Source: Calditrichia bacterium (lineage in GTDB: Bacteria > Calditrichota > Calditrichia > JAJRVZ01). Taken from it: a stretch of DNA of 64,000 nt. Position 1 is the first letter of the stretch. Every line of letters begins with the position of its first letter. A program made the translations under genes and the position numbers. Under the pieces are notes generated by a model that worked only from the letters and a program-made list of their open reading frames with translations, was not told where the DNA came from and searched no databases. The stretch spans positions 576,001 through 640,000 of the forward strand of contig CAVZSQ010000022.1 of the NCBI GenBank assembly GCA_963777955.1. Direction: 5' to 3'. This document shows, in pieces, positions 6,376-45,952 of this stretch.

Positions 6376-7410
6376 TTAAAAGTTTGCATTGAGAATCGGC
6401 AGAATTTTCAAAAGCGGCGGATTATCCCGCACGTAGTTGATCAAACCAATCTGCACCCCTTTTAATTGCCAGCTGTAATTGACGATACCGATCGAAACTC
6501 CGATCTGTTCACCTTTGATGTAGTTAAAAGCACTGGCAGCCAACCCCGTGTGCGAGCCATTTTCCTGAATCCTGATATTAGCCAGCGCGATGGTCACACC
6601 GGTAATATCTTCCCCTCCGGCGCCCAGACCGGCGAGCGTGATTCCTTCAATACGGGGTGCTCCGGCCCCCAGTCCGGCAATAGTAATTCCGGTTATTTTT
6701 TCTCCAGATCCGGCGCCCAGACCGGCGATGGTCAGCCCGCTCATGCTCTTTGAGCAGCCAACCCCTAATCCGGCTAAGGTCAGCCATTTGAGGTTTCCAC
6801 CGGCTCCGACTCCCCCTAATGCGAAGTTGATACCCGACACGTTTCCACCAGCGCCCAGACCAAGACCGCCAATGCTGATTCCGGTCAGATTTTCGCCGGC
6901 CCCGGCCCCCAATCCACCGATCAGGATCCCGGTTATGTTTCCACCGCTGCCTGCCCCCAGGCCGCCGATAAAAACGCCCTGCATGGATCCGCCGGCGCCC
7001 ACACCCAGTCCGCCGATGGCAATACCGCTGATTGAGCCGCCGCAACCGGCACCCAATAATCCCAGCGAGATACCTTTAATCTTATGTTTAGCCCCGACAC
7101 CGGCAATTCCTAACTGTACTCCCGATAAATATCCGGCTTCGGGGAGAGTCCCGAATGAAAAGCCCTGCACGCTGGCCTGCTCATTATCGTAGGCACTCCA
7201 CAGGGTTAGATTGATGCCGTTTATCTTCTCAACATCATGATCGCGGTAATTAAAACGGATTCCGGTAAATTTTTTTGAATTTCCAAAACTGATACCGGCC
7301 TGGTGAGCAGGAAGGTCAAGACTCTGTGCCCGGGCAGATGACCAGGGCAGGTATATGAGTACAAAAAGCAAAAAGGATGAGATGTAAAATTTCTGGCCGT
7401 TGCGAAACAT
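6376..7410 (-). CDS. Exported glycine-rich 15-aa repeat protein (LA_2272-like surface repeat)
   Basis: Signal peptide; about 12 tandem repeats like GISIGGLGLGAGGNV; C-terminal GVQIGLINY...LPILNANF. Confidence 0.75.
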   Translation of the reverse strand: MFRNGQKFYISSFLLFVLIYLPWSSARAQSLDLPAHQAGISFGNSKKFTGIRFNYRDHDVEKINGINLTLWSAYDNEQASVQGFSFGTLPEAGYLSGVQLGIAGVGAKHKIKGISLGLLGAGCGGSISGIAIGGLGVGAGGSMQGVFIGGLGAGSGGNITGILIGGLGAGAGENLTGISIGGLGLGAGGNVSGINFALGGVGAGGNLKWLTLAGLGVGCSKSMSGLTIAGLGAGSGEKITGITIAGLGAGAPRIEGITLAGLGAGGEDITGVTIALANIRIQENGSHTGLAASAFNYIKGEQIGVSIGIVNYSWQLKGVQIGLINYVRDNPPLLKILPILNANF

Positions 7411-7539: not shown

Positions 7540-7910
7540 ATCTACAAATCTATGATGCCTGCGGCATCAGGGCACCAGATTAATAAATTAAATGCCGCAA
7601 CTCAAGAGTTGCGGCTACCACCCTTTCACTCGATTCAATCCCCGCAATCTGAAGATTGCGGTTACCAGCTATCTTCTGTTCTATTAATGCTTTTTCCTAT
7701 CAATTCAAAGATTCCCGCCAACATACGATCAAATGTGCTGTGCGCTCAGCGGGAATGACCCTATATTGTTTTTTTCTCTCAGGTACTCAGGGACTCAATG
7801 GGCAGGTCGCGACCTGCCCCTACTATGTGCCTCAGTGCCTTATCTTTACCCTTTTCCTCTGCCTTACGGCAGATCTACGGCCTGGCTTACGCCATGCCTC
7901 CGACTTTATC
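7540..7910 (-). repeat. Mosaic array of REP-like repeats downstream of trxB
   Basis: GTCGGAG module (7859-7904), GGCAC 8-mers, GTAGGGGC REP (7800-7823), ATTCCC..GGGAAT element (7710-7759), two GGTA(G/A)CCGCAA palindromes (7642-7666, 7595-7619), TGATGCC..GGCATCA (7553-7569); all recur elsewhere in the window. Confidence 0.85.
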
Positions 7911-7912
7911 CT

Positions 7913-8842
7913 TTACTCTTCTAGATATCTCTCCGCATCAATGGCTGCCATACAGCCGCTGCCGGCGGCAGTGATGGCCTGCCGGTAAATCCGGTCCTGG
8001 ACATCACCGCAGGCGAATACCCCTGCAATACTGGTGCGGGTTGAGCCGGCCTGTGTTTGAATATAGCCATCCGGATCAAGCGTTAGCAGGTCCTGGAAGA
8101 TACCTGTGTTGGGAGTATGACCGATAGCCATAAAAACACCGTCTATTTTCTGTTCAGTCAAAGCGCCGGTTTTAGTGTCCTGCAACACGACTGCCTGAAC
8201 CACTTTATCACCTCTGATCTCAGTGATGGTCTTATTCAGCAGGAATTCGATTTTTTTGTTTGTTTTAGCTTTTTCGAGCATGATTTTTGAGGCGCGGAAT
8301 CCTTCGCGGCGGTGCACAATATAAACCTTGCTGGCAAATTTAGTCAGGAAGACGGCCTCTTCCATAGCTGAATCACCGCCCCCCACGATCATCACCTCTT
8401 TCTCCTTAAAAAAGAAACCATCACAGGTGGCACATGCTGAAATGCCGTAACCCATATATTTTTGTTCCGAGGGAATACCCAGCCAGCGGGCTGAGGCACC
8501 GGTGGCAATGATCACCGCATCGCTGGTGTATATCTGATCTTCGCTGGTGACAGTAAACGGCCTGTGCCGGGTAAAATCGACCGCAGTTACCAGCTCAAAC
8601 TTGCAGGTGGCGCCGAAGCGGACAGCCTGTTTACGCATATCGTCCATTAACTGCGGTCCCATGATACCGCCGGGAAATCCGGGATAATTCTCCACCTCGG
8701 TGGTGATCATAAGTTGTCCGCCCGGCTGATTTCCTTCCAGAACCAAAGGTGCCAGATTAGCCCGGGCGCTGTAGATGGCGGCAGTTAAGCCGGCTGGCCC
8801 ACTGCCGATGATTATCAGTTTAAAATGTTCACTTTTTTTCAT
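7913..8842 (-). CDS. trxB: Thioredoxin-disulfide reductase
   Basis: IIGSGPAGLTAA, CATCDG active site, GGGDSAMEEA, GDVQD..RQAITAAGSG. Confidence 0.98.
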   Translation of the reverse strand: MKKSEHFKLIIIGSGPAGLTAAIYSARANLAPLVLEGNQPGGQLMITTEVENYPGFPGGIMGPQLMDDMRKQAVRFGATCKFELVTAVDFTRHRPFTVTSEDQIYTSDAVIIATGASARWLGIPSEQKYMGYGISACATCDGFFFKEKEVMIVGGGDSAMEEAVFLTKFASKVYIVHRREGFRASKIMLEKAKTNKKIEFLLNKTITEIRGDKVVQAVVLQDTKTGALTEQKIDGVFMAIGHTPNTGIFQDLLTLDPDGYIQTQAGSTRTSIAGVFACGDVQDRIYRQAITAAGSGCMAAIDAERYLEE

Positions 8843-8948
8843 TTCCTGCTCCACTCGACATGATTAGTTATTTCCGCTATAATTTTAATTTAATAATTAT
8901 TCTCACTACAGACTAATTAGATTATTTAAATGGGATAAAGTTACATGT

Positions 8949-15469: not shown

Positions 15470-17632
15470 ATGTTTGATACAATTCCATCCTTTTTACGCA
15501 CCAATATTTCTCCGTTCATTATCTTAGGCGTATTTCTGGTCGCTGCTATTTTCTCTTATTTACTTTACCGCCGCACCATACCGCCGCTGGCGAACAGTTG
15601 GCGGATAACCCTGTCCATTATTCGCGGCCTGGCTGTGGCCCTGATCCTGTTGCTGCTTTTTACGCCGCAGTTGACCCTGGTCTGGCAGCAGCGGGTCACC
15701 GATAAAATTGCCCTGGTCATCGATCGCTCCGCATCAATGGGTCTGCTGGAAAAGGGGGCCAGCCGGTTAAGCCGGGAGGGAAAAATTGGCGCAGATTTAC
15801 TGGCGGCGGTTCACGGGCCTGTTGAAGTTTCACTTTATGCTTTTAATACCGATACAGTGAGTCTGAAGAGTCCGCAGATCGATTCGGCACAGTTTGCCAC
15901 GGACATCGATGCCGCTCTAACGCATATAATTGCTAAAGAAAAAGATCTGACTGCGCTGATTCTGCTCAGTGATGGTAATTTCACCAGCGGTCGTAATCCG
16001 CTTTATTCCGATGCTTTATTGCGCTGCAGGATACATACCGTGGGTCTAGGCGATACGGTTGATATTCCCGATCTGCTGATAGCCGATGTGCAGGCAAATA
16101 AAATTGTATATCAAAATAAAATTACCCCGGTACAGGTAAATCTGATCGCACGCGGATTCACTGGTAAAGAAACGTTACTGCAGATCAAAGCAGAGGGTAA
16201 AGTTTTAGCAGCTCAGCAGGTGAAGATCAGCACTGCAGGGGGCATTATTCCGGTTTCTCTGAACATTAAACCGGAACAGGCAGGTCTGCGTCACTTTGAA
16301 ATCAGTGTCGATAAGCTGCCCGGTGAAGTTTTACTGGCTAATAACAGGCACCTGCTGGTCGTAGAGGTACTGAAATCAAAAATCAAAGCAACAATGCTGG
16401 CGTCACAACCGGATTTTGACGTCAAGTTTTTGCATCTGTTACTGGCAGCCAATCCTGATCTGGATGTAGAACTGGCAGTCCTGGATCAGGGAATCAAAAG
16501 TCCGGCCGAAGGGTTGCTGAATCGTGTTTTGGATAGTCTGGATGTACTGATTTTGCATGATTTTCCGGCATTGAGTACCAGCCGGGAAAATCTGGGTATT
16601 ATGGAAGAGTTATTAACCAGGCAGAAAGTGCCCTCGTTATTGCTATTCGGGGTTAATTCGTCGACAGTTGACTGGGATTTTATTAACCGGTTTTATTCAC
16701 TGCCGGCGCCAAAGTTTCTCAATCCGGTCTTAAAGACGCAGGTGCTGCTCACGGATTTCGGCAAAACTCTGCCGCTGTTAAATATTTTCAGCTCCGACCA
16801 GGAGAACCTGGATTTCTGGCAGAAATGTCCGCCCATTGAATATCCTTTTGAAAAAGTGGAGGCAGGTAATTCGCAGCGGATTGCTCTGGAGACAGCGGCC
16901 CAGGCCGGTAAAGAAAATATCCGGGTACCGGTACTGATAATTGAACAGAATGCCGGACGCAGGAATGCTTATTTACTTGGTTCCGGTTTCTGGCGCTGGC
17001 ATTTCATGCTGGCCGAAGACCGGGTGTTCCGGGACGGGTGGCAGAGTATTATTAAAAATATGATACGCTGGCTGAGCAGCAGCGGGGGCAGCAACAATGT
17101 ATTACTGAGCACCAATAAAAGAAGTTATCAGGTCGGTGAAACGGTACGGATCAGTACGGAGGTATATGACGGTGATTATAAGCCTGTCGATGACGGGATG
17201 GTTCAACTTAAGGTTTCGGGTCCCGCCGGTGTTTTTGAACTGGATGGAGGATTAATTACAGCGGGAACTTATGCATCCGATTTTCAACTATTGAGCGAAG
17301 GGGATTATACCATAGAGGCGCAGGCGTTCCGGCAGGGCAATGATGTGCCTCTTGGACAGACTTCGACCCGAATTGTGTGTACACCGGTCAATATCGAGTT
17401 TCTGTATACCCGTCAGGATGAACAGTTACTGCGCAAACTGGCTGACAAGAGCGGCGGCCGGTATGTCAGCGAAGATAATTACCGTGATTTATTCAGCGAA
17501 CTGAATTTTCCGGTACGCTACCAGGAAGTGACCAGGACTTTTGAGATCTGGCAGAAAGCGGCTTTGTTATTATTGATTATTTTTTTGTTGAGTATGGAGT
17601 GGTTTGTACGGAAGCGGTTGGGGTTGGCTTGA
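15470..17632 (+). CDS. vWA-domain membrane protein with C-terminal anchor
   Basis: Two N-terminal TMs; MIDAS DRSASM...LSDG; GFWRW; C-terminal EWFVRKRLGL. Confidence 0.85.
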   Translation: MFDTIPSFLRTNISPFIILGVFLVAAIFSYLLYRRTIPPLANSWRITLSIIRGLAVALILLLLFTPQLTLVWQQRVTDKIALVIDRSASMGLLEKGASRLSREGKIGADLLAAVHGPVEVSLYAFNTDTVSLKSPQIDSAQFATDIDAALTHIIAKEKDLTALILLSDGNFTSGRNPLYSDALLRCRIHTVGLGDTVDIPDLLIADVQANKIVYQNKITPVQVNLIARGFTGKETLLQIKAEGKVLAAQQVKISTAGGIIPVSLNIKPEQAGLRHFEISVDKLPGEVLLANNRHLLVVEVLKSKIKATMLASQPDFDVKFLHLLLAANPDLDVELAVLDQGIKSPAEGLLNRVLDSLDVLILHDFPALSTSRENLGIMEELLTRQKVPSLLLFGVNSSTVDWDFINRFYSLPAPKFLNPVLKTQVLLTDFGKTLPLLNIFSSDQENLDFWQKCPPIEYPFEKVEAGNSQRIALETAAQAGKENIRVPVLIIEQNAGRRNAYLLGSGFWRWHFMLAEDRVFRDGWQSIIKNMIRWLSSSGGSNNVLLSTNKRSYQVGETVRISTEVYDGDYKPVDDGMVQLKVSGPAGVFELDGGLITAGTYASDFQLLSEGDYTIEAQAFRQGNDVPLGQTSTRIVCTPVNIEFLYTRQDEQLLRKLADKSGGRYVSEDNYRDLFSELNFPVRYQEVTRTFEIWQKAALLLLIIFLLSMEWFVRKRLGLA

Positions 17633-17635
17633 ACA

Positions 17636-17920
17636 AGGCACAAAGGCACACAGGCACAGAGTAGGGGCGCATTGAATATGCGCCCTTATACAAAATAAGA
17701 TTGTCATCCCAGGAATGTCGGAGACCTGGTGCAGACAGGTCGAAGATCTGCCGACAGGCAGGGTGGTAAGGGGGCTGTTTTAAAGGCCAAAGGGAAAAGG
17801 ATAAAGGGAAAAGGTTTGTAGGCAGCGCTTCGCAGCGCCGAAAAGATGGTAGTCGCGACCTTCAGGTTGCGCTTGATATTTAATATTTGAATGCTGGTAG
17901 CCGCAACTCTTGAGTTGCGG
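17636..17920 (+). repeat. Mosaic array of REP-like repeats downstream of the vWA gene
   Basis: GGCAC 8-mers, GTAGGGGCGCAT REP (17661-17685), GTCGGAG module (17717-17761), AAAGG heptamers, GCGCTTC..GCGCCGA (17818-17841), GGTAG palindromes (17848-17871, 17896-17920). Confidence 0.85.
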
Positions 17921-18125
17921 AATGATTCCCATAAAGGTTTTAATTGAATTTGCCTTCCATTTTATTATATTTATATAGTTAGAAATAGTTAGGCTATCAT
18001 AGATATTGTGGATTCTAAGAATTCTCTTACAGATTCTTATATTTATTAAATATTGTAATTAAATTGCGGTTAATGGAATACATGTTAATACTGATATTCT
18101 TATCAATAATGAAGGAAGGTGCTGT

Positions 18126-19244
18126 ATGAAAAGGAATATTGTCCTCTTACTTTCCTGTATTTTATTGTTTATCTCAAATTGTAAAGAAAATCCACAAGCG
18201 ACAGATGAAACCTATTCCGTAAGCGGTTCCGTTGAATATGCCGGTTTTTACAAAGAAAATGTCAGTGTGGTGATCGATAACAAGATTAATTGGACCACTA
18301 CTACCGACAATAGCGGATACTTTAATATTCAAAATGTATCAGCCGGAAATCATACGCTCGTCATTTCAAAGGAAAACGAAGATGGAAGTTTCGGTGAAAG
18401 ATCAAATGCAATTGCAGTATACGATGACATTGTAGTAGATAACCTGAAATTACCTAATCCGGTATTCATGTATGATCCGGCGGAAGTTACGGCTAATTCT
18501 GTGTCATTAAAATGGTCACCTTCTATAGCCGCAGATTTTCGCGAGTATAAAATATATCGCCATAACACGTCGGGCCTGGATGAAACTACCGGTACGCTCG
18601 CCCATGTGTCTACCGATATCGATGATACATTATTTGTCGATACAAATTTAAATCCCCTGCAGACCTATTTTTACCGTGTATATGTTATGAACGAGTACGG
18701 CCGGCTGGGCGGCAGTAATATTATGCAGGCCACCACCGGGAATTTTAATGCCATTGCTAACGGCAGTTTTGAAATTCCGGATACTTATACTCAATTCCCG
18801 GCAGAATGGGCCATCGGTTCTGTATTAGCGAGTACCTGCATTGAATATGACTCGACAGTATCTTTCGAAGGCAAATATTCATTGCATTTTTATGCCCTGG
18901 CGGAAGAATATGCCTTTTCCATGGTAGAACAAATAATCGATACGGATAAATTGATTGCCGGCGCGCGCTATGAAGTATCATACTGGGCAAAACATGATTC
19001 GTTATACTCGTATCACGGAAGTTTCACAGAACTTTACCCGGTAGCATATCATATGTGCGAATTTACCGGACCGAGGGACAGTTCCGATTGGGTGCGACAT
19101 TCAGAAACGCTGACCATCCCCGCTGATGCCAATCCCACACATTATTCTTTTCAGCTCTCTGCATTCCAGATTTACAACGTTACCGTGCCGGTTTATCCTT
19201 TAAATTTCTGGGTTGACAATGTTGAATTAAGTAGAATTGAGTAA
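18126..19244 (+). CDS. Lipoprotein with carboxypeptidase-regulatory-like, FN3 and CBM-like domains
   Basis: Lipobox ISNC; TTTDNSGYFNIQNVSAG; VSLKWS..YKIYR..YFYRVY; NGSFE...FWVDNV. Confidence 0.75.
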   Translation: MKRNIVLLLSCILLFISNCKENPQATDETYSVSGSVEYAGFYKENVSVVIDNKINWTTTTDNSGYFNIQNVSAGNHTLVISKENEDGSFGERSNAIAVYDDIVVDNLKLPNPVFMYDPAEVTANSVSLKWSPSIAADFREYKIYRHNTSGLDETTGTLAHVSTDIDDTLFVDTNLNPLQTYFYRVYVMNEYGRLGGSNIMQATTGNFNAIANGSFEIPDTYTQFPAEWAIGSVLASTCIEYDSTVSFEGKYSLHFYALAEEYAFSMVEQIIDTDKLIAGARYEVSYWAKHDSLYSYHGSFTELYPVAYHMCEFTGPRDSSDWVRHSETLTIPADANPTHYSFQLSAFQIYNVTVPVYPLNFWVDNVELSRIE

Positions 19245-27525: not shown

Positions 27526-28064
27526 GGACAAAGGTCGGAGGTCAGAGACCGGAGACCTGCCGTAAGGCAGGGACAAAGGGACAAAGGGACAAAGGGACAA
27601 AGGGACAAAGAGGTGACAAAGGGACAAAGGGACAAAGGGACAAATAAAAGATTATATCAAAAGTAATTAATAATCAAGAACGATTTTGTAGGGGCGCATG
27701 GCCATGCGCCCATGATGCCGGAGGCATCAAATATTTGTAGTAATGGAGAAATCTCCAATAATATGGAGACCCCGGAGGGGTCGAACAAGTTTGAGAATGG
27801 CTTACAAGATTTATCCCGGTATTAAAAATCAGTAACCCCAATCTTTAGATTGCGTGAATCGCATAACAATCGAAGCCGGTAGCCGCATTCTTCAGATTGC
27901 GTGGTTTTTAATGTCAGCAGAATATCGGTAGCCGCAACTCTTGAGTTGCGGGTTATTTTTACATTACTGGCAGATGTATATCCGCCTTTTAGTTTCTTGC
28001 TCACTAGCCACTATCTTCAGATAGTGGAGTATGGAATCACCTAATATCCTATGGCTTTAGCCAT
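27525..28064 (+). repeat. Mosaic array of REP-like repeats downstream of the LTD gene
   Basis: GTCGGAG module, octamers, GTAGGGGCGCATG REP (27688-27711), TGATGCC..GGCATCA, GACCCC..GGGGTC, three GTA(G/A)CC palindromes (27831, 27878, 27927), ACTAGCCACTAT element (28003-28064). Confidence 0.85.
27570..27644 (+). repeat. GGGACAAA octamer tandem repeat
   Basis: 5 perfect copies, one degenerate unit, 3 perfect copies; one further copy overlaps the stop codon at 27525. Confidence 0.95.
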
Positions 28065-28141
28065 CAACATTGCTTTTGAACAAAGCACATGCTAAATTTT
28101 TGACAGTCGATTTGACATTTGTATCATCAGGAGACCAGATC

Positions 28142-29773
28142 ATGAGTAATGCCTACTTTAAAGTGCCCGTTCCTTACAATGAACCGATTAAATCTTATCT
28201 CCCGGGATCTCCGGAGCGAACCGAATTAAAAAAGAAATTGACGAAAATGCAGGCCGAGACTGTTGAAATTCCGCTGATCATCGGCGGGCAGGAGGTCAGG
28301 AGCGGTAATACCGCCGAAATCCGCGCACCGCACAATCATAAAATAAAACTGGGTATCTATCATAAGGCCGCTGACAAAGAAGTTAAAATGGCTGTCGCTG
28401 CAGCGTTAAGTGCCCGCAAGGCCTGGTCAGAAATGCCCTGGGAACAGCGTGTGGCTATTTTCCTGAAAGCAGCCGATCTGCTGGCGGGAGTCCTGGCGCA
28501 GTACTCTGAATGCCGCGACCATGCTGGGTCAGTCGAAAACCGTGTACCAGGCGGAAATTGATTCGGCCGCGGAATTGATCGATTTCTGGCGTTATAATTC
28601 ATACTATCTGACCCAACTGATCAGCGACCAACCTTACTCGCCGCCGGGGACCTGGAATCGCCTGGAATACAGGGCCCTGGAAGGATTTATTTTCGCCGTT
28701 ACTCCATTCAATTTCACTTCCATTGCCGGCAATCTGCCAACGGCACCAGCCATGGCAGGAAATGTCGTATTGTGGAAGCCGGCCTCCAGTGCAGTTTATT
28801 CGGCGTACTTCTTAATGAAATTATGGGCTGAAGCAGGTTTGCCTGCCGGGGTGATCAATTTCATACCCGGCGCAGGGGGACAGGTTGGCAACCCGGTGCT
28901 GAGCAGCCCCGATCTGGCCGGGATTCATTTTACCGGTTCCACAGAGGTTTTTCAGAATATGTGGAAAACTGTCGGAAATAATATATCCAAAATGAAATAC
29001 TATCCCCGTATTGTCGGTGAAACCGGTGGCAAGGATTTCATTTTCGCCCATCCCTCGGCTGACCTGCCGGCACTGGTGGTGGCCGTATTGCGCGGAGCCT
29101 TCGAGTATCAGGGACAAAAATGCTCAGCAGCTTCCCGCGCATACATTCCCCAGTCCCTATGGCCGCAGTTTAAAAAAATGTATGTAGCCGAAGTAAAGAA
29201 AATTAAAATGGGGGATATCAGCGATTTTAAAAATTTCATGGGCGCGGTCATCGACCGGGAGCTTATGACAGTATAAAAGCCTATATAGATTTTGCCAGGA
29301 ACTCCCGGGAAGCAGAAATTATTACCGGCGGTAAATGCGCTGCCAGCAAAGGATTTTTCATCGAACCGACCACGATTGTCACCACCAATCCGAAATTCAA
29401 AACCATGCAGGAGGAGATCTTCGGGCCGGTTATGACCATCTATGTGTATGAAGATGATAAACTGCCGGAAACGATTAAACTGTGTGATGAAACCTCCCCG
29501 TATGCTTTAACCGGAGCGATATTTGCCCAGGATCGTGCGGCGATTAATATGTTATCGAATGCGCTGCGCGATGCTGCCGGTAATTTTTATATCAATGATA
29601 AACCGACCGGTGCGGTGGTCGGGCAGCAACCCTTCGGCGGTGCCCGCGCTTCCGGCACTAATGACAAAGCCGGTAGCGCCATGAACATCCTGCGCTGGAT
29701 GTCGGCCCGGGCCATCAAGGAAAATATGGTCCCGCCCCACGATTGGACGTATCCGTTTATGAAATCACAATAA
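28142..29773 (+). CDS. pruA: L-glutamate gamma-semialdehyde (P5C) dehydrogenase (frameshifts ~28490 and ~29260)
   Basis: NEPIKSYLPGSPER, TPFNFTSIAGNL, FTGST, GETGGKDF, FEYQGQKCSA, EEIFGP, QQPFGGARASGTNDKAG. Confidence 0.95.
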
Positions 29774-41962: not shown

Positions 41963-42129
41963 TAAAGGTTAAAGGCCAAAGGCAAAAAGGTAAAAAGATT
42001 AAAAGGTCAAAAGTAAAAAAAATGTGGGAGGCGCTTCCTAGCGCCGATTAGTTACTGACCCACCCCAAACCCCTCCCTTTCAGTCCGGCGGTTGCCGGAC
42101 TGAAAGGGAGGGGCAGGGGGAGGGTTATT
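41963..42129 (+). repeat. Repeat mosaic after fabD
   Basis: AAAGG heptamers, GGAGGCGCTTCCTAGCGCCGA (42024-42047), 77-bp CCCCTCCC hairpin element (42053-42129). Confidence 0.85.
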
Positions 42130-42152
42130 TAAGGGTAAAGGATTAACGAAAA

Positions 42153-42893
42153 ATGGAACTCAAAGACAAAATCGCCATCGTTACCGGCTCAGCCCGTGGA
42201 ATTGGCCGGATGATTGCACTGGAATTGGCCGCAGCGGGAGCCAATCTGGTGGTATCCGACGTCCTGGAGCAGGATGGCCAGAATGTCGTAGCAGAGATCA
42301 AAAAACTGGGACGTGAGGCAATCTGGTTCAAGGCTGATGTGAGCAAGAGTGCCGAAGCAGCTCAACTGATTCAAGCTGCGCTGGATAAATTTACGCGCAT
42401 CGATATTCTGGTCAATAATGCCGGCATCACCCGTGACAATCTGCTTTTACGGATGAGCGAGGCGGAATGGGATAGTGTCATTGCGGTTAATCTTAAAGGT
42501 ACGTATAATTGCATCCAGGCTGCCACTAAAACTTTAATGAAACAGCGTACGGGCAAGATTATCAATATTGCCTCGGTAGTCGGGCAGATCGGCAATGCCG
42601 GTCAGGCCAATTACGCTGCTTCCAAGGCGGGAATAATCGGCCTGACCAAAGCAGTTGCAAAAGAATTAGCAGCTCGTAATATATGTGTTAATGCTATCGC
42701 ACCGGGATTTATTCAGACCGCCATGACTGATAATTTACCCGAGAAAGCAAAAGAGGCCTTGCAGAGCGTAATCCCGTTAGCCCGGTTGGGTCAGCCGGAA
42801 GATGTGGCCAGGGCCGTGCGGTTTTTAAGCAGCGCTGCCGCGAACTATATCACCGGCCAGGTGTTGAATGTGGATGGCGGGATGGTCATGTAA
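42153..42893 (+). CDS. fabG: 3-oxoacyl-ACP reductase
   Basis: TGSARGIG, NNAGITRD, NYAASKAG, VDGGM. Confidence 0.97.
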   Translation: MELKDKIAIVTGSARGIGRMIALELAAAGANLVVSDVLEQDGQNVVAEIKKLGREAIWFKADVSKSAEAAQLIQAALDKFTRIDILVNNAGITRDNLLLRMSEAEWDSVIAVNLKGTYNCIQAATKTLMKQRTGKIINIASVVGQIGNAGQANYAASKAGIIGLTKAVAKELAARNICVNAIAPGFIQTAMTDNLPEKAKEALQSVIPLARLGQPEDVARAVRFLSSAAANYITGQVLNVDGGMVM

Positions 42894-42895
42894 AG

Positions 42896-43261
42896 TACTG
42901 ACCCACCCCTAACCCCTCCCTTTCAGTCCGGCGGTTGCCGGACTGAAAGGGAGGGGCAGGGGGAGGGTTATTGAAGGGAAAAAGGCAAAGAAGTTTATAG
43001 GTCAAATGATTTCTGGAGGCGCTTCCTGCGCCGATGGAACACTCAACGCCCGGCAGACTAGCCACTATATTTCAGATAGTGGTTGAGAAAATAAATGTAA
43101 ATACTGTGGCTTTGGCCACAAAAAGAGCAAGAGATTTATAATAGGATAATGAAATTATCTGACCCTCCCTATGTCCCCTCCCTTTGCCCCTCGACTTCGC
43201 TCGGGGACCAGGGAGGGGATAAGGGGTGGGTTACTAAGGTACTCAGGAACTAAGGGACTAA
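42896..43261 (+). repeat. Repeat mosaic after fabG
   Basis: 77-bp hairpin element (42896-42972; 76/77 identical to 42053), GGAGGCGCTTCC palindrome (43015), ACTAGCCACTAT element (43057-43120), reversed CCCCTCCC element (43160-43233), GGNACTNA octamers. Confidence 0.85.
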
Positions 43262-44870: not shown

Positions 44871-45674
44871 ATGTTAAAACAAAGCATCCAATTTTTATCC
44901 AGGTTATTCAAAAAAAAGGACCAGCCGCGGGAAATCAATTTTTCCGCCATTGAACGAATCCTGAATTATTCTTTTGTAAACAAATCGTTACTGACGCAGT
45001 CCTTTAAACACCGTTCTTATCTTTCGATCACCCGGGAATCTTCGCTGGAATCCAACGAACGCCTGGAATTCCTGGGGGATGCCATTCTAGAGTTGGTGGT
45101 AACAGAATTTTTATACCGCAAATTCCCGGAGCATGATGAAGGGTATTTATCAAAGTTGAAATCAGTGCTGGTATCCCGGAAGGTGCTGGCCGAGCTGGTG
45201 ATCCGCAAAGGATTGGGCAAGCATTTATTGCTGGATCGCGGCGAAGAAAAAACGGGGGGTAAAACACGCAGTTCCAATCTGGCCAATCTCTATGAAGCGG
45301 TTATCGGCGCCGTATATCTGGACAGCGGCCTGGAACCTGCGGCCCGCTTTATTGAGCAGACGCTTTTAACGCGCTACCATGCTTTAATTAAAGATGAAAA
45401 GTTTATCAATTATAAAAGCATACTGCTGGAATATGTACAGGGGAATAAATCTGGCGAAGGGGGTGAAACGGGTGAAGCGGGCGAAGCGGGCGAAGCCCGT
45501 CTGCCCGTTTATGAACTGTTGCAGCAGACCGGACCCGATCATGACCGGCAATTTGTCATGCAGGTCAGCATTCCCGGGGGTCTGAGTGCGCTGGGGGAAG
45601 GGAAGAGCAAGAAAGTAGCCGAGCAGCGCTGTGCGCAGAATTTGTTGAACAAGATTGCGCCGGAGTTGTTATAA
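44871..45674 (+). CDS. rnc: Ribonuclease III
   Basis: NERLEFLGDAIL, EAVIGAVYLD, dsRBD GPDH...SKKVAEQ. Confidence 0.97.
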   Translation: MLKQSIQFLSRLFKKKDQPREINFSAIERILNYSFVNKSLLTQSFKHRSYLSITRESSLESNERLEFLGDAILELVVTEFLYRKFPEHDEGYLSKLKSVLVSRKVLAELVIRKGLGKHLLLDRGEEKTGGKTRSSNLANLYEAVIGAVYLDSGLEPAARFIEQTLLTRYHALIKDEKFINYKSILLEYVQGNKSGEGGETGEAGEAGEARLPVYELLQQTGPDHDRQFVMQVSIPGGLSALGEGKSKKVAEQRCAQNLLNKIAPELL

Positions 45675-45675
45675 G

Positions 45676-45952
45676 TACTGACCCACCCCAAACCCCTCCC
45701 TTTCAGCCCAAGGGCTGAAAGGGAGGGGCCGGGGGAGGGTTAGTTCATTCCCGCTGAGCGAATGGCACGCTTGATCATATGTAGGCGGGAATCTATAATC
45801 GAAAAGGGTAATGGATAAAGGGTAAAGTAAAAAGGTATGCAGGTGTTTTATACTTAGTGCCAGAGTGCCTCAGTGCCTAAGTGCCTTTTTTTTATCTCTA
45901 CCTGACGGTAGATCTCCGACTTGTCTGCGCCAGGTCTCCGACCTTTACCCTT
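45676..45952. repeat. Head-to-head repeat mosaics between convergent genes
   Basis: Plus-oriented: CCCCTCCC element (45676-45742), ATTCCC..GGGAAT element (45745-45793), heptamers. Minus-oriented: GGCAC octamers (45857-45886), GTCGGAG module (45898-45942). Confidence 0.85.

What the first reader, a model, noticed from the sequence alone, without database searches (positions are those of the whole stretch)
27831..27951. Fixed-period repeat-spacer mini-arrays (24-25 nt palindrome plus 22-25 nt unique spacer) at three loci
Seen: GGTAGCCGCAACTCTTGAGTTGCGG is 25/25 identical at 17896-17920, 27927-27951 and, reversed, 7595-7619. Each copy is the last unit of a direct-repeat series. A TTCAG-loop variant lies 48, 49 and 47 nt upstream (17848, 27878, 7666), and a third, more decayed unit lies 47 nt further up at 27831. 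Spacers are unrelated, e.g. TGAATCGCATAACAATCGAAGCC, TGGTTTTTAATGTCAGCAGAATATC and CTTGATATTTAATATTTGAATGCT. Inference: constant period, unique spacers and polar decay resemble CRISPR-like or guide-like arrays, or a REP that duplicates at a measured distance. No cas gene is in the window.
Basis: partly seen in the sequence, partly recalled or inferred. Interest (0 to 1): 0.72.

Follow-up and report, generated by a model that had tools for sequence, protein, structure and literature searches.

The report
Head-to-tail REP hairpin doublets, not CRISPR
The CRISPR-looking mini-arrays are real, but they are pairs of small hairpin repeats of a well-known bacterial selfish-DNA class (REPs, served by a tyrosine transposase found in the same genome), and their "spacers" are inherited linkers that slowly mutate rather than captured foreign DNA.

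Summary
The genome has 10 exact copies and 1 one-off copy of the 25-mer, each with a sister hairpin upstream; 15 of 18 curated head-to-tail pairs have a 46-49 nt period. The CRISPR/guide reading fails. No Cas1, RAMP, RT or Nop gene and no CRISPR array was found in the 92%-complete genome, and there were no spacer hits in viral contigs (0 of 4). Arrays never exceed 3 units. Spacers are inherited at orthologous loci (6 of 24 and 7 of 29 letters changed, same length) and are related across loci (37% vs 28% shuffled). The units are GTAG-tagged palindromes. A RAYT-like HUH-Y1 transposase in the genome is flanked by the same family, including a 48-nt head-to-tail pair, and its homologues lie among such hairpins in other phyla. 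Best reading: a REP pair copied as one cassette, whose linker then drifts. Mildly unusual: head-to-tail, polar A-then-B pairs dominate. This scan noted similar doublets in other genomes.

The parts
27831..27854 (+). Decayed A-type REP unit (tag and stem partly lost)
27855..27877 (+). Linker 1 (23 nt)
   Evidence: no exact match in viral contigs; no match within 4 mismatches elsewhere in the genome
27878..27901 (+). A-type GTAG-tagged REP hairpin
27902..27926 (+). Linker 2 (25 nt)
   Evidence: no exact match in viral contigs
27927..27951 (+). B-type REP: GTAG tag plus 20-nt near-perfect palindrome, identical at 10 genomic loci; about 190 nt upstream of a split pruA-like gene
17818..17840 (+). 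Different GTAG-tagged hairpin ('C-type') that sits directly upstream of the A unit here and at several other loci
17848..17871 (+). A-type REP hairpin
   Evidence: 1 of 24 letters differs in the orthologous locus L154
17872..17895 (+). Linker (24 nt), inherited: same length with 6 of 24 letters changed in L154; no change listed in a close-strain contig of run X3
17896..17920 (+). B-type REP (one C>T change at 17901 in the X3 contig)
7643..7666 (-). A-type REP hairpin
7620..7642 (-). Linker (23 nt)
   Evidence: no exact match in viral contigs
7595..7619 (-). B-type REP downstream of trxB (7913-8854, -); the pair is absent at the orthologous locus of congener G001

Best explanation
These are GTAG-family REP elements arranged as head-to-tail pairs (A-type hairpin, 22-26 nt linker, B-type hairpin; sometimes with a third hairpin in front). 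SHOWN: the unit anatomy; a RAYT-like HUH-Y1 transposase in the same genome flanked by the same hairpin family; related linkers at unlinked loci; inheritance and point-mutational drift of linkers at orthologous loci; presence or absence of whole pairs between congeners. INFERRED: the pair with its linker was copied as one cassette to new intergenic sites, most likely by a RAYT acting on single-stranded DNA, and possibly also by recombination between the repeat-mosaic patches in which it sits. Afterwards the hairpins stayed constrained while the linker kept only its length and drifted until it looked unique. The constant period is the inherited length of one ancestral cassette. Any effect on RNA (stabilising 3' ends, attenuation) would be secondary and was not tested.
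For: Unit = GTAG tag + 18-20 nt palindrome with a 2-4 nt centre, intergenic. Four Y1_Tnp genes in the genome. The one at G000:C19:415 kb scores best with NCBIfam's REP-associated tyrosine transposase (70.2 bits, cut-off 80), keeps the HUH and catalytic Tyr, and is flanked by 2+2 family hairpins, the downstream two head-to-tail at 48 nt. Homologues (32-49% identity) lie in 7 distinct loci of the 124 fetched by the doublet pattern; none matched the IS200 control query. The one protein-found homologue, in G014, is flanked by 5 family hairpins. A G001 pair matches a non-orthologous G000 pair at 86.8% over 68 nt including the linker. 8 of 190 linker pairs reach p<=0.01 against 1.9 expected, and the set-wide identity excess is p=0.0002. 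In orthologous loci L153 and L154, A units differ at 2 of 48 letters and linkers at 13 of 53, with lengths unchanged. One identical A-linker-B pair recurs twice in L032 and again in another genome, L068. Long arrays of this family elsewhere have near-identical linkers. Literature: fixed spacings with no two spacers identical in P. fluorescens REPINs (PMC3337134); head-tail dimers and same-length, different-sequence spacers described (PMC3733652).
Against: The RAYT scores below the curated cut-off. Its four flanking hairpins are not the B-type sequence. No close homologue was found with this query in G001, which has the pairs (590 contigs, 92% complete); only 2 of 86 phylum genomes had one. So this particular enzyme may not be the one that spread the pairs. 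Most linker pairs are individually unalignable (182 of 190 above p=0.01), and two of the closest linkers (C19:380.3 and 385.3 kb) may stem from a local duplication beside a tRNA end. Canonical REPINs are inverted; head-tail dimers are described as rare. No excision or movement was observed.
Confidence: 0.85

Rival explanations
1. Sequential insertion: a single B-type REP is repeatedly inserted 22-29 nt downstream of a resident family REP, because the RAYT bound to the resident hairpin picks a nearby cleavage site. Linkers would then be local target DNA.
For: All 11 B copies have an upstream partner and none has a downstream one in this genome. A types are diverse while B is identical at 10 loci. 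TnpA-REP cleaves at dinucleotides 5' or 3' of a bound REP (PMC8266576 introduction).
Against: Linkers at unlinked loci share ancestry. B is not a recent burst confined to this genome: it occurs at orthologous loci in L153 and L154 and, with one change, in G001. The last two linker letters are mixed (TC 4, CC 4, TT 3, CT 2, GT 2, AC 2, AT 1 of 18), so there is no single junction dinucleotide.
Confidence: 0.08
2. Domesticated cis-element: whatever its origin, the B palindrome is now kept by selection as a protein-binding site or RNA hairpin for neighbouring genes. This is compatible with a REP origin.
For: B is identical at 10 loci. In the window it lies 185-206 nt upstream of a co-oriented gene at all three loci.
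Against: Genome-wide the distance and orientation to the next gene vary widely (87 to over 2500 nt, both orientations; crude ORF calls). The pair is absent at the orthologous trxB locus of G001 and upstream of pruA in four other genera. B is decayed at C22:654.1 kb and in G001 L162. Identity of B in L153 and L154 is by construction, since they were found with that pattern.
Confidence: 0.05
3. Cas-independent guide or memory mini-arrays: hairpin repeats processed into ~47-nt RNAs whose spacers target foreign or self DNA.
For: Direct-repeat geometry, tight period and spacer lengths of 22-26 nt. The genome is only 92% complete, so an effector could be missing.
Against: No Cas1, RAMP, RVT_1 or Nop family match; no CRISPR array by an exact-20-mer scan; at most 3 units; no shared neighbouring gene; 0 of 4 window spacers found exactly in viral contigs; only E>=1 noise in phage and plasmid BLAST of the 27.8-kb array; spacers inherited and related.
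Confidence: 0.02

Closest known systems
GTAG-tagged REPs, head-tail (HT) dimers (Di Nocera et al. 2013, PMC3733652; passages seen)
   Same: 20-25 nt palindrome with an unpaired GTAG tag, intergenic, partners 20-100 bp apart, spacers that can differ in sequence but keep their length.
   Different: [quoted passage not shown] Copy number is low (a few dozen units). I did not check whether this sequence family is among that paper's numbered families (figures and supplements not seen).
REPIN-RAYT systems (Bertels and Rainey 2011, PMC3116915 passages; PMC3337134 parts 1-2 of 3)
   Same: Doublet as the likely copied unit, discrete spacings, non-identical spacers, REPs better conserved than spacers, single-copy RAYT flanked by the REP family.
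   Different: REPINs are two inverted REPs that fold into one long hairpin; these are direct repeats that fold as separate small hairpins (two of three loci; the triplet can also mispair between units).
REPtron / BIME with TnpA-REP (Corneloup et al. 2021, PMC8266576; abstract, introduction and first part of discussion seen)
   Same: HUH-Y1 gene surrounded by GTAG hairpins; short near-perfect palindromes as in group 3; mosaic clusters of several repeat types.
   Different: BIMEs alternate orientation. The enzyme here was not placed in group 2 or 3, and no activity was tested.
CRISPR arrays and TIGR-type guide arrays (features recalled, not from a call, except the CRISPR definition quoted)
   Same: Direct repeats separated by similar-length, different-looking spacers.
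   Different: No cas1, RAMP or Nop gene found, 2-3 units only, dispersed over 17 loci, spacers inherited and homologous, no targets found.

Membership tests
GTAG-family REP | Short palindrome preceded by an unpaired GTAG tetranucleotide | tested here: met
GTAG-family REP | Dispersed, extragenic, multi-copy | tested here: met
   11 B copies on 4.24 Mb and 17 loci with pairs; intergenic in the window and by crude ORF calls elsewhere; far fewer copies than the hundreds in E. coli or Pseudomonas
GTAG-family REP | RAYT/TnpA-REP gene flanked by the same repeat family | tested here: met
   G000:C19:415 kb; homologues in 7 distinct of 124 pattern-found loci and in G014. NCBIfam score 70.2 is under the cut-off of 80, and the flanking hairpins are family-level, not B-type
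GTAG-family REP | Cleavage and strand transfer of the single-stranded REP by the RAYT | not testable with these tools
   needs an in vitro assay
REPIN (strict) | Two REPs in inverted orientation forming one long hairpin | tested here: not met
   the pairs are head-to-tail
REPIN (strict) | Doublet is the copied unit; spacer length conserved more than sequence | tested here: met
   homologous linkers at non-orthologous loci; same-length drift at orthologous loci; indirect evidence
CRISPR | cas1 or effector cas genes in the genome | tested here: not met
   PF01867 and PF03787 not found in a 92%-complete genome; Cas2, Cas3, Cas9 and Cas12 models were not searched; three short TnpB-like zinc-ribbon hits lie on contigs without pairs
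CRISPR | Spacers acquired independently from foreign DNA, with turnover between lineages | tested here: not met
CRISPR | Array transcribed and processed into unit-length RNAs | not testable with these tools
   no RNA run was listed
TIGR-Tas or RT-linked arrays | Nop-domain or reverse-transcriptase partner gene | tested here: not met
   PF01798 and PF00078 not found; distant Tas-like proteins could escape the Pfam model

The most novel reading that the evidence does not exclude
The mobile unit is a polar head-to-tail heterodimer (A-linker-B, at times C-A-linker-B) that cannot form a REPIN hairpin. The RAYT would use two different direct-repeat hairpins as left and right ends, as IS200/IS605 transposases do, with linker length under selection. 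Such cassettes stack in a consistent order inside multi-family intergenic mosaics. That would make a small, testable non-REPIN substrate for the unresolved question of how REPs spread.
Probability: 0.3. Interest if true: 0.45.

Novelty: new member of a known kind. Interest (0 to 1): 0.2.

Why it matters
As it stands it is an ordinary REP family in a little-studied lineage, and a useful caution: REP pairs with drifting linkers mimic mini-CRISPRs, and comparing orthologous loci separates the two. The remaining interest is mechanistic. REP dissemination by RAYTs is still described as unresolved (PMC8266576), and head-to-tail, polar pairs with a conserved linker length offer a different substrate geometry from REPINs to test in vitro.

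Tried and rejected
No RNA holder was listed for window 17640-19200; this is no evidence on expression. Laying four DNA runs gave only one contig across a pair (X3, 17849-18043). Rfam at gathering thresholds: 0 matches in the window. BLAST of the 27.8-kb array against phages and plasmids gave only E>=1 hits; the other two arrays were not BLASTed, and only 4 of 18 linkers were scanned against viral contigs. Self-target scan with up to 4 mismatches: only sister linkers and AT-rich chance hits. One search used a pattern one base too long and is disregarded. Orientation against replication strand (GC skew) or upstream gene was inconclusive: same as the upstream ORF at 12 of 18 scorable anchors, with crude ORF calls. 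The exact B 24-mer was in 0 of 40 relatives and the strict doublet pattern in 1 of 40; both are exact-match tests. The other three Y1 transposases were rejected as partners because they sit in other repeat families or none. Literature searches found nothing relevant on polar head-to-tail REP heterodimers; with 21 and 53 that is four searches of an open-access library, so absence from print is not shown. Paper supplements and figures were not read.

Full report
1. Observation. The 25-mer GGTAGCCGCAACTCTTGAGTTGCGG lies at 17896, 27927 and, reversed, 7595-7619, with sister hairpins 48, 49 and 47 nt upstream and a decayed third unit at 27831. The window is G000:C22:576001-640000 of a 4.24-Mb, 27-contig, 92%-complete genome. 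Genome-wide there are 10 exact copies and 1 with one mismatch, and all 11 have a family unit upstream. A fuzzy family pattern gives 29 hits against 0 and 1 in shuffles. I curated 18 adjacent head-to-tail pairs at 17 loci. Their periods are 46 (3), 47 (7), 48 (2), 49 (3), 50, 53 and 65. Left out: one pair 75 nt apart upstream of the transposase, and a few singlets and self-overlapping palindromes. No series exceeds three units.

2. The unit. Each unit is an unpaired GTAG tag, one base, and an 18-20 nt near-perfect palindrome that starts CGC and ends GCG. Upstream ('A') units vary, with changes mirrored on both arms; the downstream ('B') unit is nearly invariant. The genome holds other GTAG-tagged hairpin families: GTAG precedes a hairpin about twice as often as most control tetramers (0.013 vs about 0.006; TAGG, which overlaps it, is also high). 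This is the anatomy of GTAG REPs as given in PMC8266576 (introduction) and PMC3733652 (passages).

3. A partner enzyme. Four Y1_Tnp genes exist. One (L002, C19:415 kb) scores 70.2 bits with NCBIfam's REP-associated tyrosine transposase, below the cut-off of 80 but far above its IS200 score. It retains the metal-binding His pair region and the catalytic Tyr in an alignment of 9 proteins, 8 of them from 164 homologues found. It is flanked by two family hairpins on each side; the downstream two are head-to-tail, 48 nt apart, with a 24-nt linker, the same geometry as the finding. Among these and 2 viral loci, 7 distinct loci hold a homologue of this protein at 32-49% identity, none matched the IS200 control, and 42 had only short flanks. 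The one homologue found by protein search among 85 other phylum genomes (G014, one internal stop) is flanked by five family hairpins. Against a tight link: the hairpins beside the G000 enzyme are not B-type, and G001 has pairs but no close homologue found with this query.

4. The spacers are inherited linkers. Two metagenome contigs found with the B pattern are orthologous loci. L154 matches window 17.4-17.9 kb at about 90% in the upstream gene: A differs at 1 of 24 letters and the linker at 6 of 24, same length. L153 matches C19:454.6 kb at 78%: A differs at 1 of 24 and the linker at 7 of 29. B is identical there by construction. A close-strain contig (run X3, 194 nt, 4 other letters) spans the 17.9-kb pair with no listed change in the linker and one change in B. 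Linkers are also related between loci. A G001 pair matches a non-orthologous G000 pair at 86.8% over 68 nt. 8 of 190 linker pairs reach p<=0.01 (1.9 expected; 3 in reverse orientation). Twelve linkers preceding B show 0.37 ungapped identity against 0.276 shuffled (p=0.0002), which survives trimming and restriction to G000 (p=0.001), while sequence downstream of B does not (p=0.08). The signal is weak per pair: window linkers share at best 10-12 of 22 letters with their nearest relative. In other genomes, long arrays of this family have near-identical linkers and periods from about 34 to 65 nt, and one A-linker-B pair recurs unchanged within L032 and in L068. Whole pairs come and go: the trxB pair is absent at the orthologous G001 locus, G001 has pairs or triplets at sites where G000 has none on my list, and four other genera have none upstream of pruA.

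5. No guide machinery or targets. Cas1, RAMP, RVT_1 and Nop families were not found; three short TnpB-like zinc-ribbon hits are on contigs without pairs. An exact-repeat scan found only the IS200-associated array at C22:305 kb and one other 4-copy repeat. Neighbours of the three window loci are unrelated: trxB, a FlgD/T9SS-like C-terminal-domain protein, pruA and unassigned proteins. 0 of 4 window spacers occur exactly in viral contigs; phage and plasmid BLAST of one array gave E>=1 only. RNA could not be examined.

6. Mechanism. Most likely (0.85) an A-linker-B cassette of a RAYT-associated REP family was copied to intergenic sites and then aged: hairpins constrained, linker length kept, linker sequence drifting. 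Copying as a unit is inferred from linker homology; the role of the RAYT is inferred from family-level association and from established TnpA-REP biochemistry. Rivals: sequential insertion of single B units at a set distance (0.08), present-day selection on B as a cis-element (0.05), guide arrays (0.02).

7. Context. The pairs sit in mosaic intergenic patches. Of 312 clusters of 13 hand-defined motifs, 26 contain three or more motif types, with a largely consistent order and strand (for example the octamer runs precede A in 6 of 6 and A precedes B in 8 of 8; no shuffle control was run). The pair is thus one module of a broader repeat mosaic.

8. Comparison and verdict. It works like a REPIN/BIME doublet and meets the tested features of GTAG REPs; it is not a strict REPIN because the partners are direct, and it fails the tested CRISPR features. 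Fixed spacing with non-identical spacers is documented for REP doublets (PMC3337134; PMC3116915). Head-tail dimers are a named but rare class, so their dominance and polarity here is the only unusual point. Earlier notes of this scan reached similar readings on other genomes (unchecked, read after my own reading was fixed). New member of a known kind; interest 0.2.

Noticed in passing
window 7570-7880, 17630-17920, 27546-28030; 26 patches genome-wide: Intergenic patches are mosaics of many repeat families (octamer runs, several hairpin types) stacked on one strand in a largely consistent order, often starting just after a stop codon; the content differs between congeners at the same locus.
   Followed up: partly
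L001 (G000:C22:304.5-305.8 kb): An IS200/IS605-family transposase preceded by about 7-8 tandem 68-73 nt double-hairpin units; another CRISPR look-alike.
   Followed up: no
window 28070-29276 and possibly to 29773: The pruA-like gene is split over at least two overlapping ORFs; frameshift or assembly error.
   Followed up: no
window 42053-42139, 42896-42982, 45673-45745: Three copies of a long inverted-repeat element with C-rich and G-rich arms, two of them flanking the ORF at 42153-42893.
   Followed up: no
G000:C19:380.3 kb and 385.3 kb: Two pairs 5 kb apart, each downstream of the same tRNA 3'-end-like sequence and with the closest linkers; possibly the ends of a small integrated island.
   Followed up: no
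window 6376-7410 (-): 344-aa protein with 16-residue periodic repeats (48-nt DNA period) and a weak LA_2272-type repeat match; its period coincides with, but is unrelated to, the REP period.
   Followed up: no
L003 (G000:C22:1018.2 kb) and L004 (C22:372.2 kb): Two further Y1 transposase genes, each bracketed by its own short inverted or palindromic motif.
   Followed up: no
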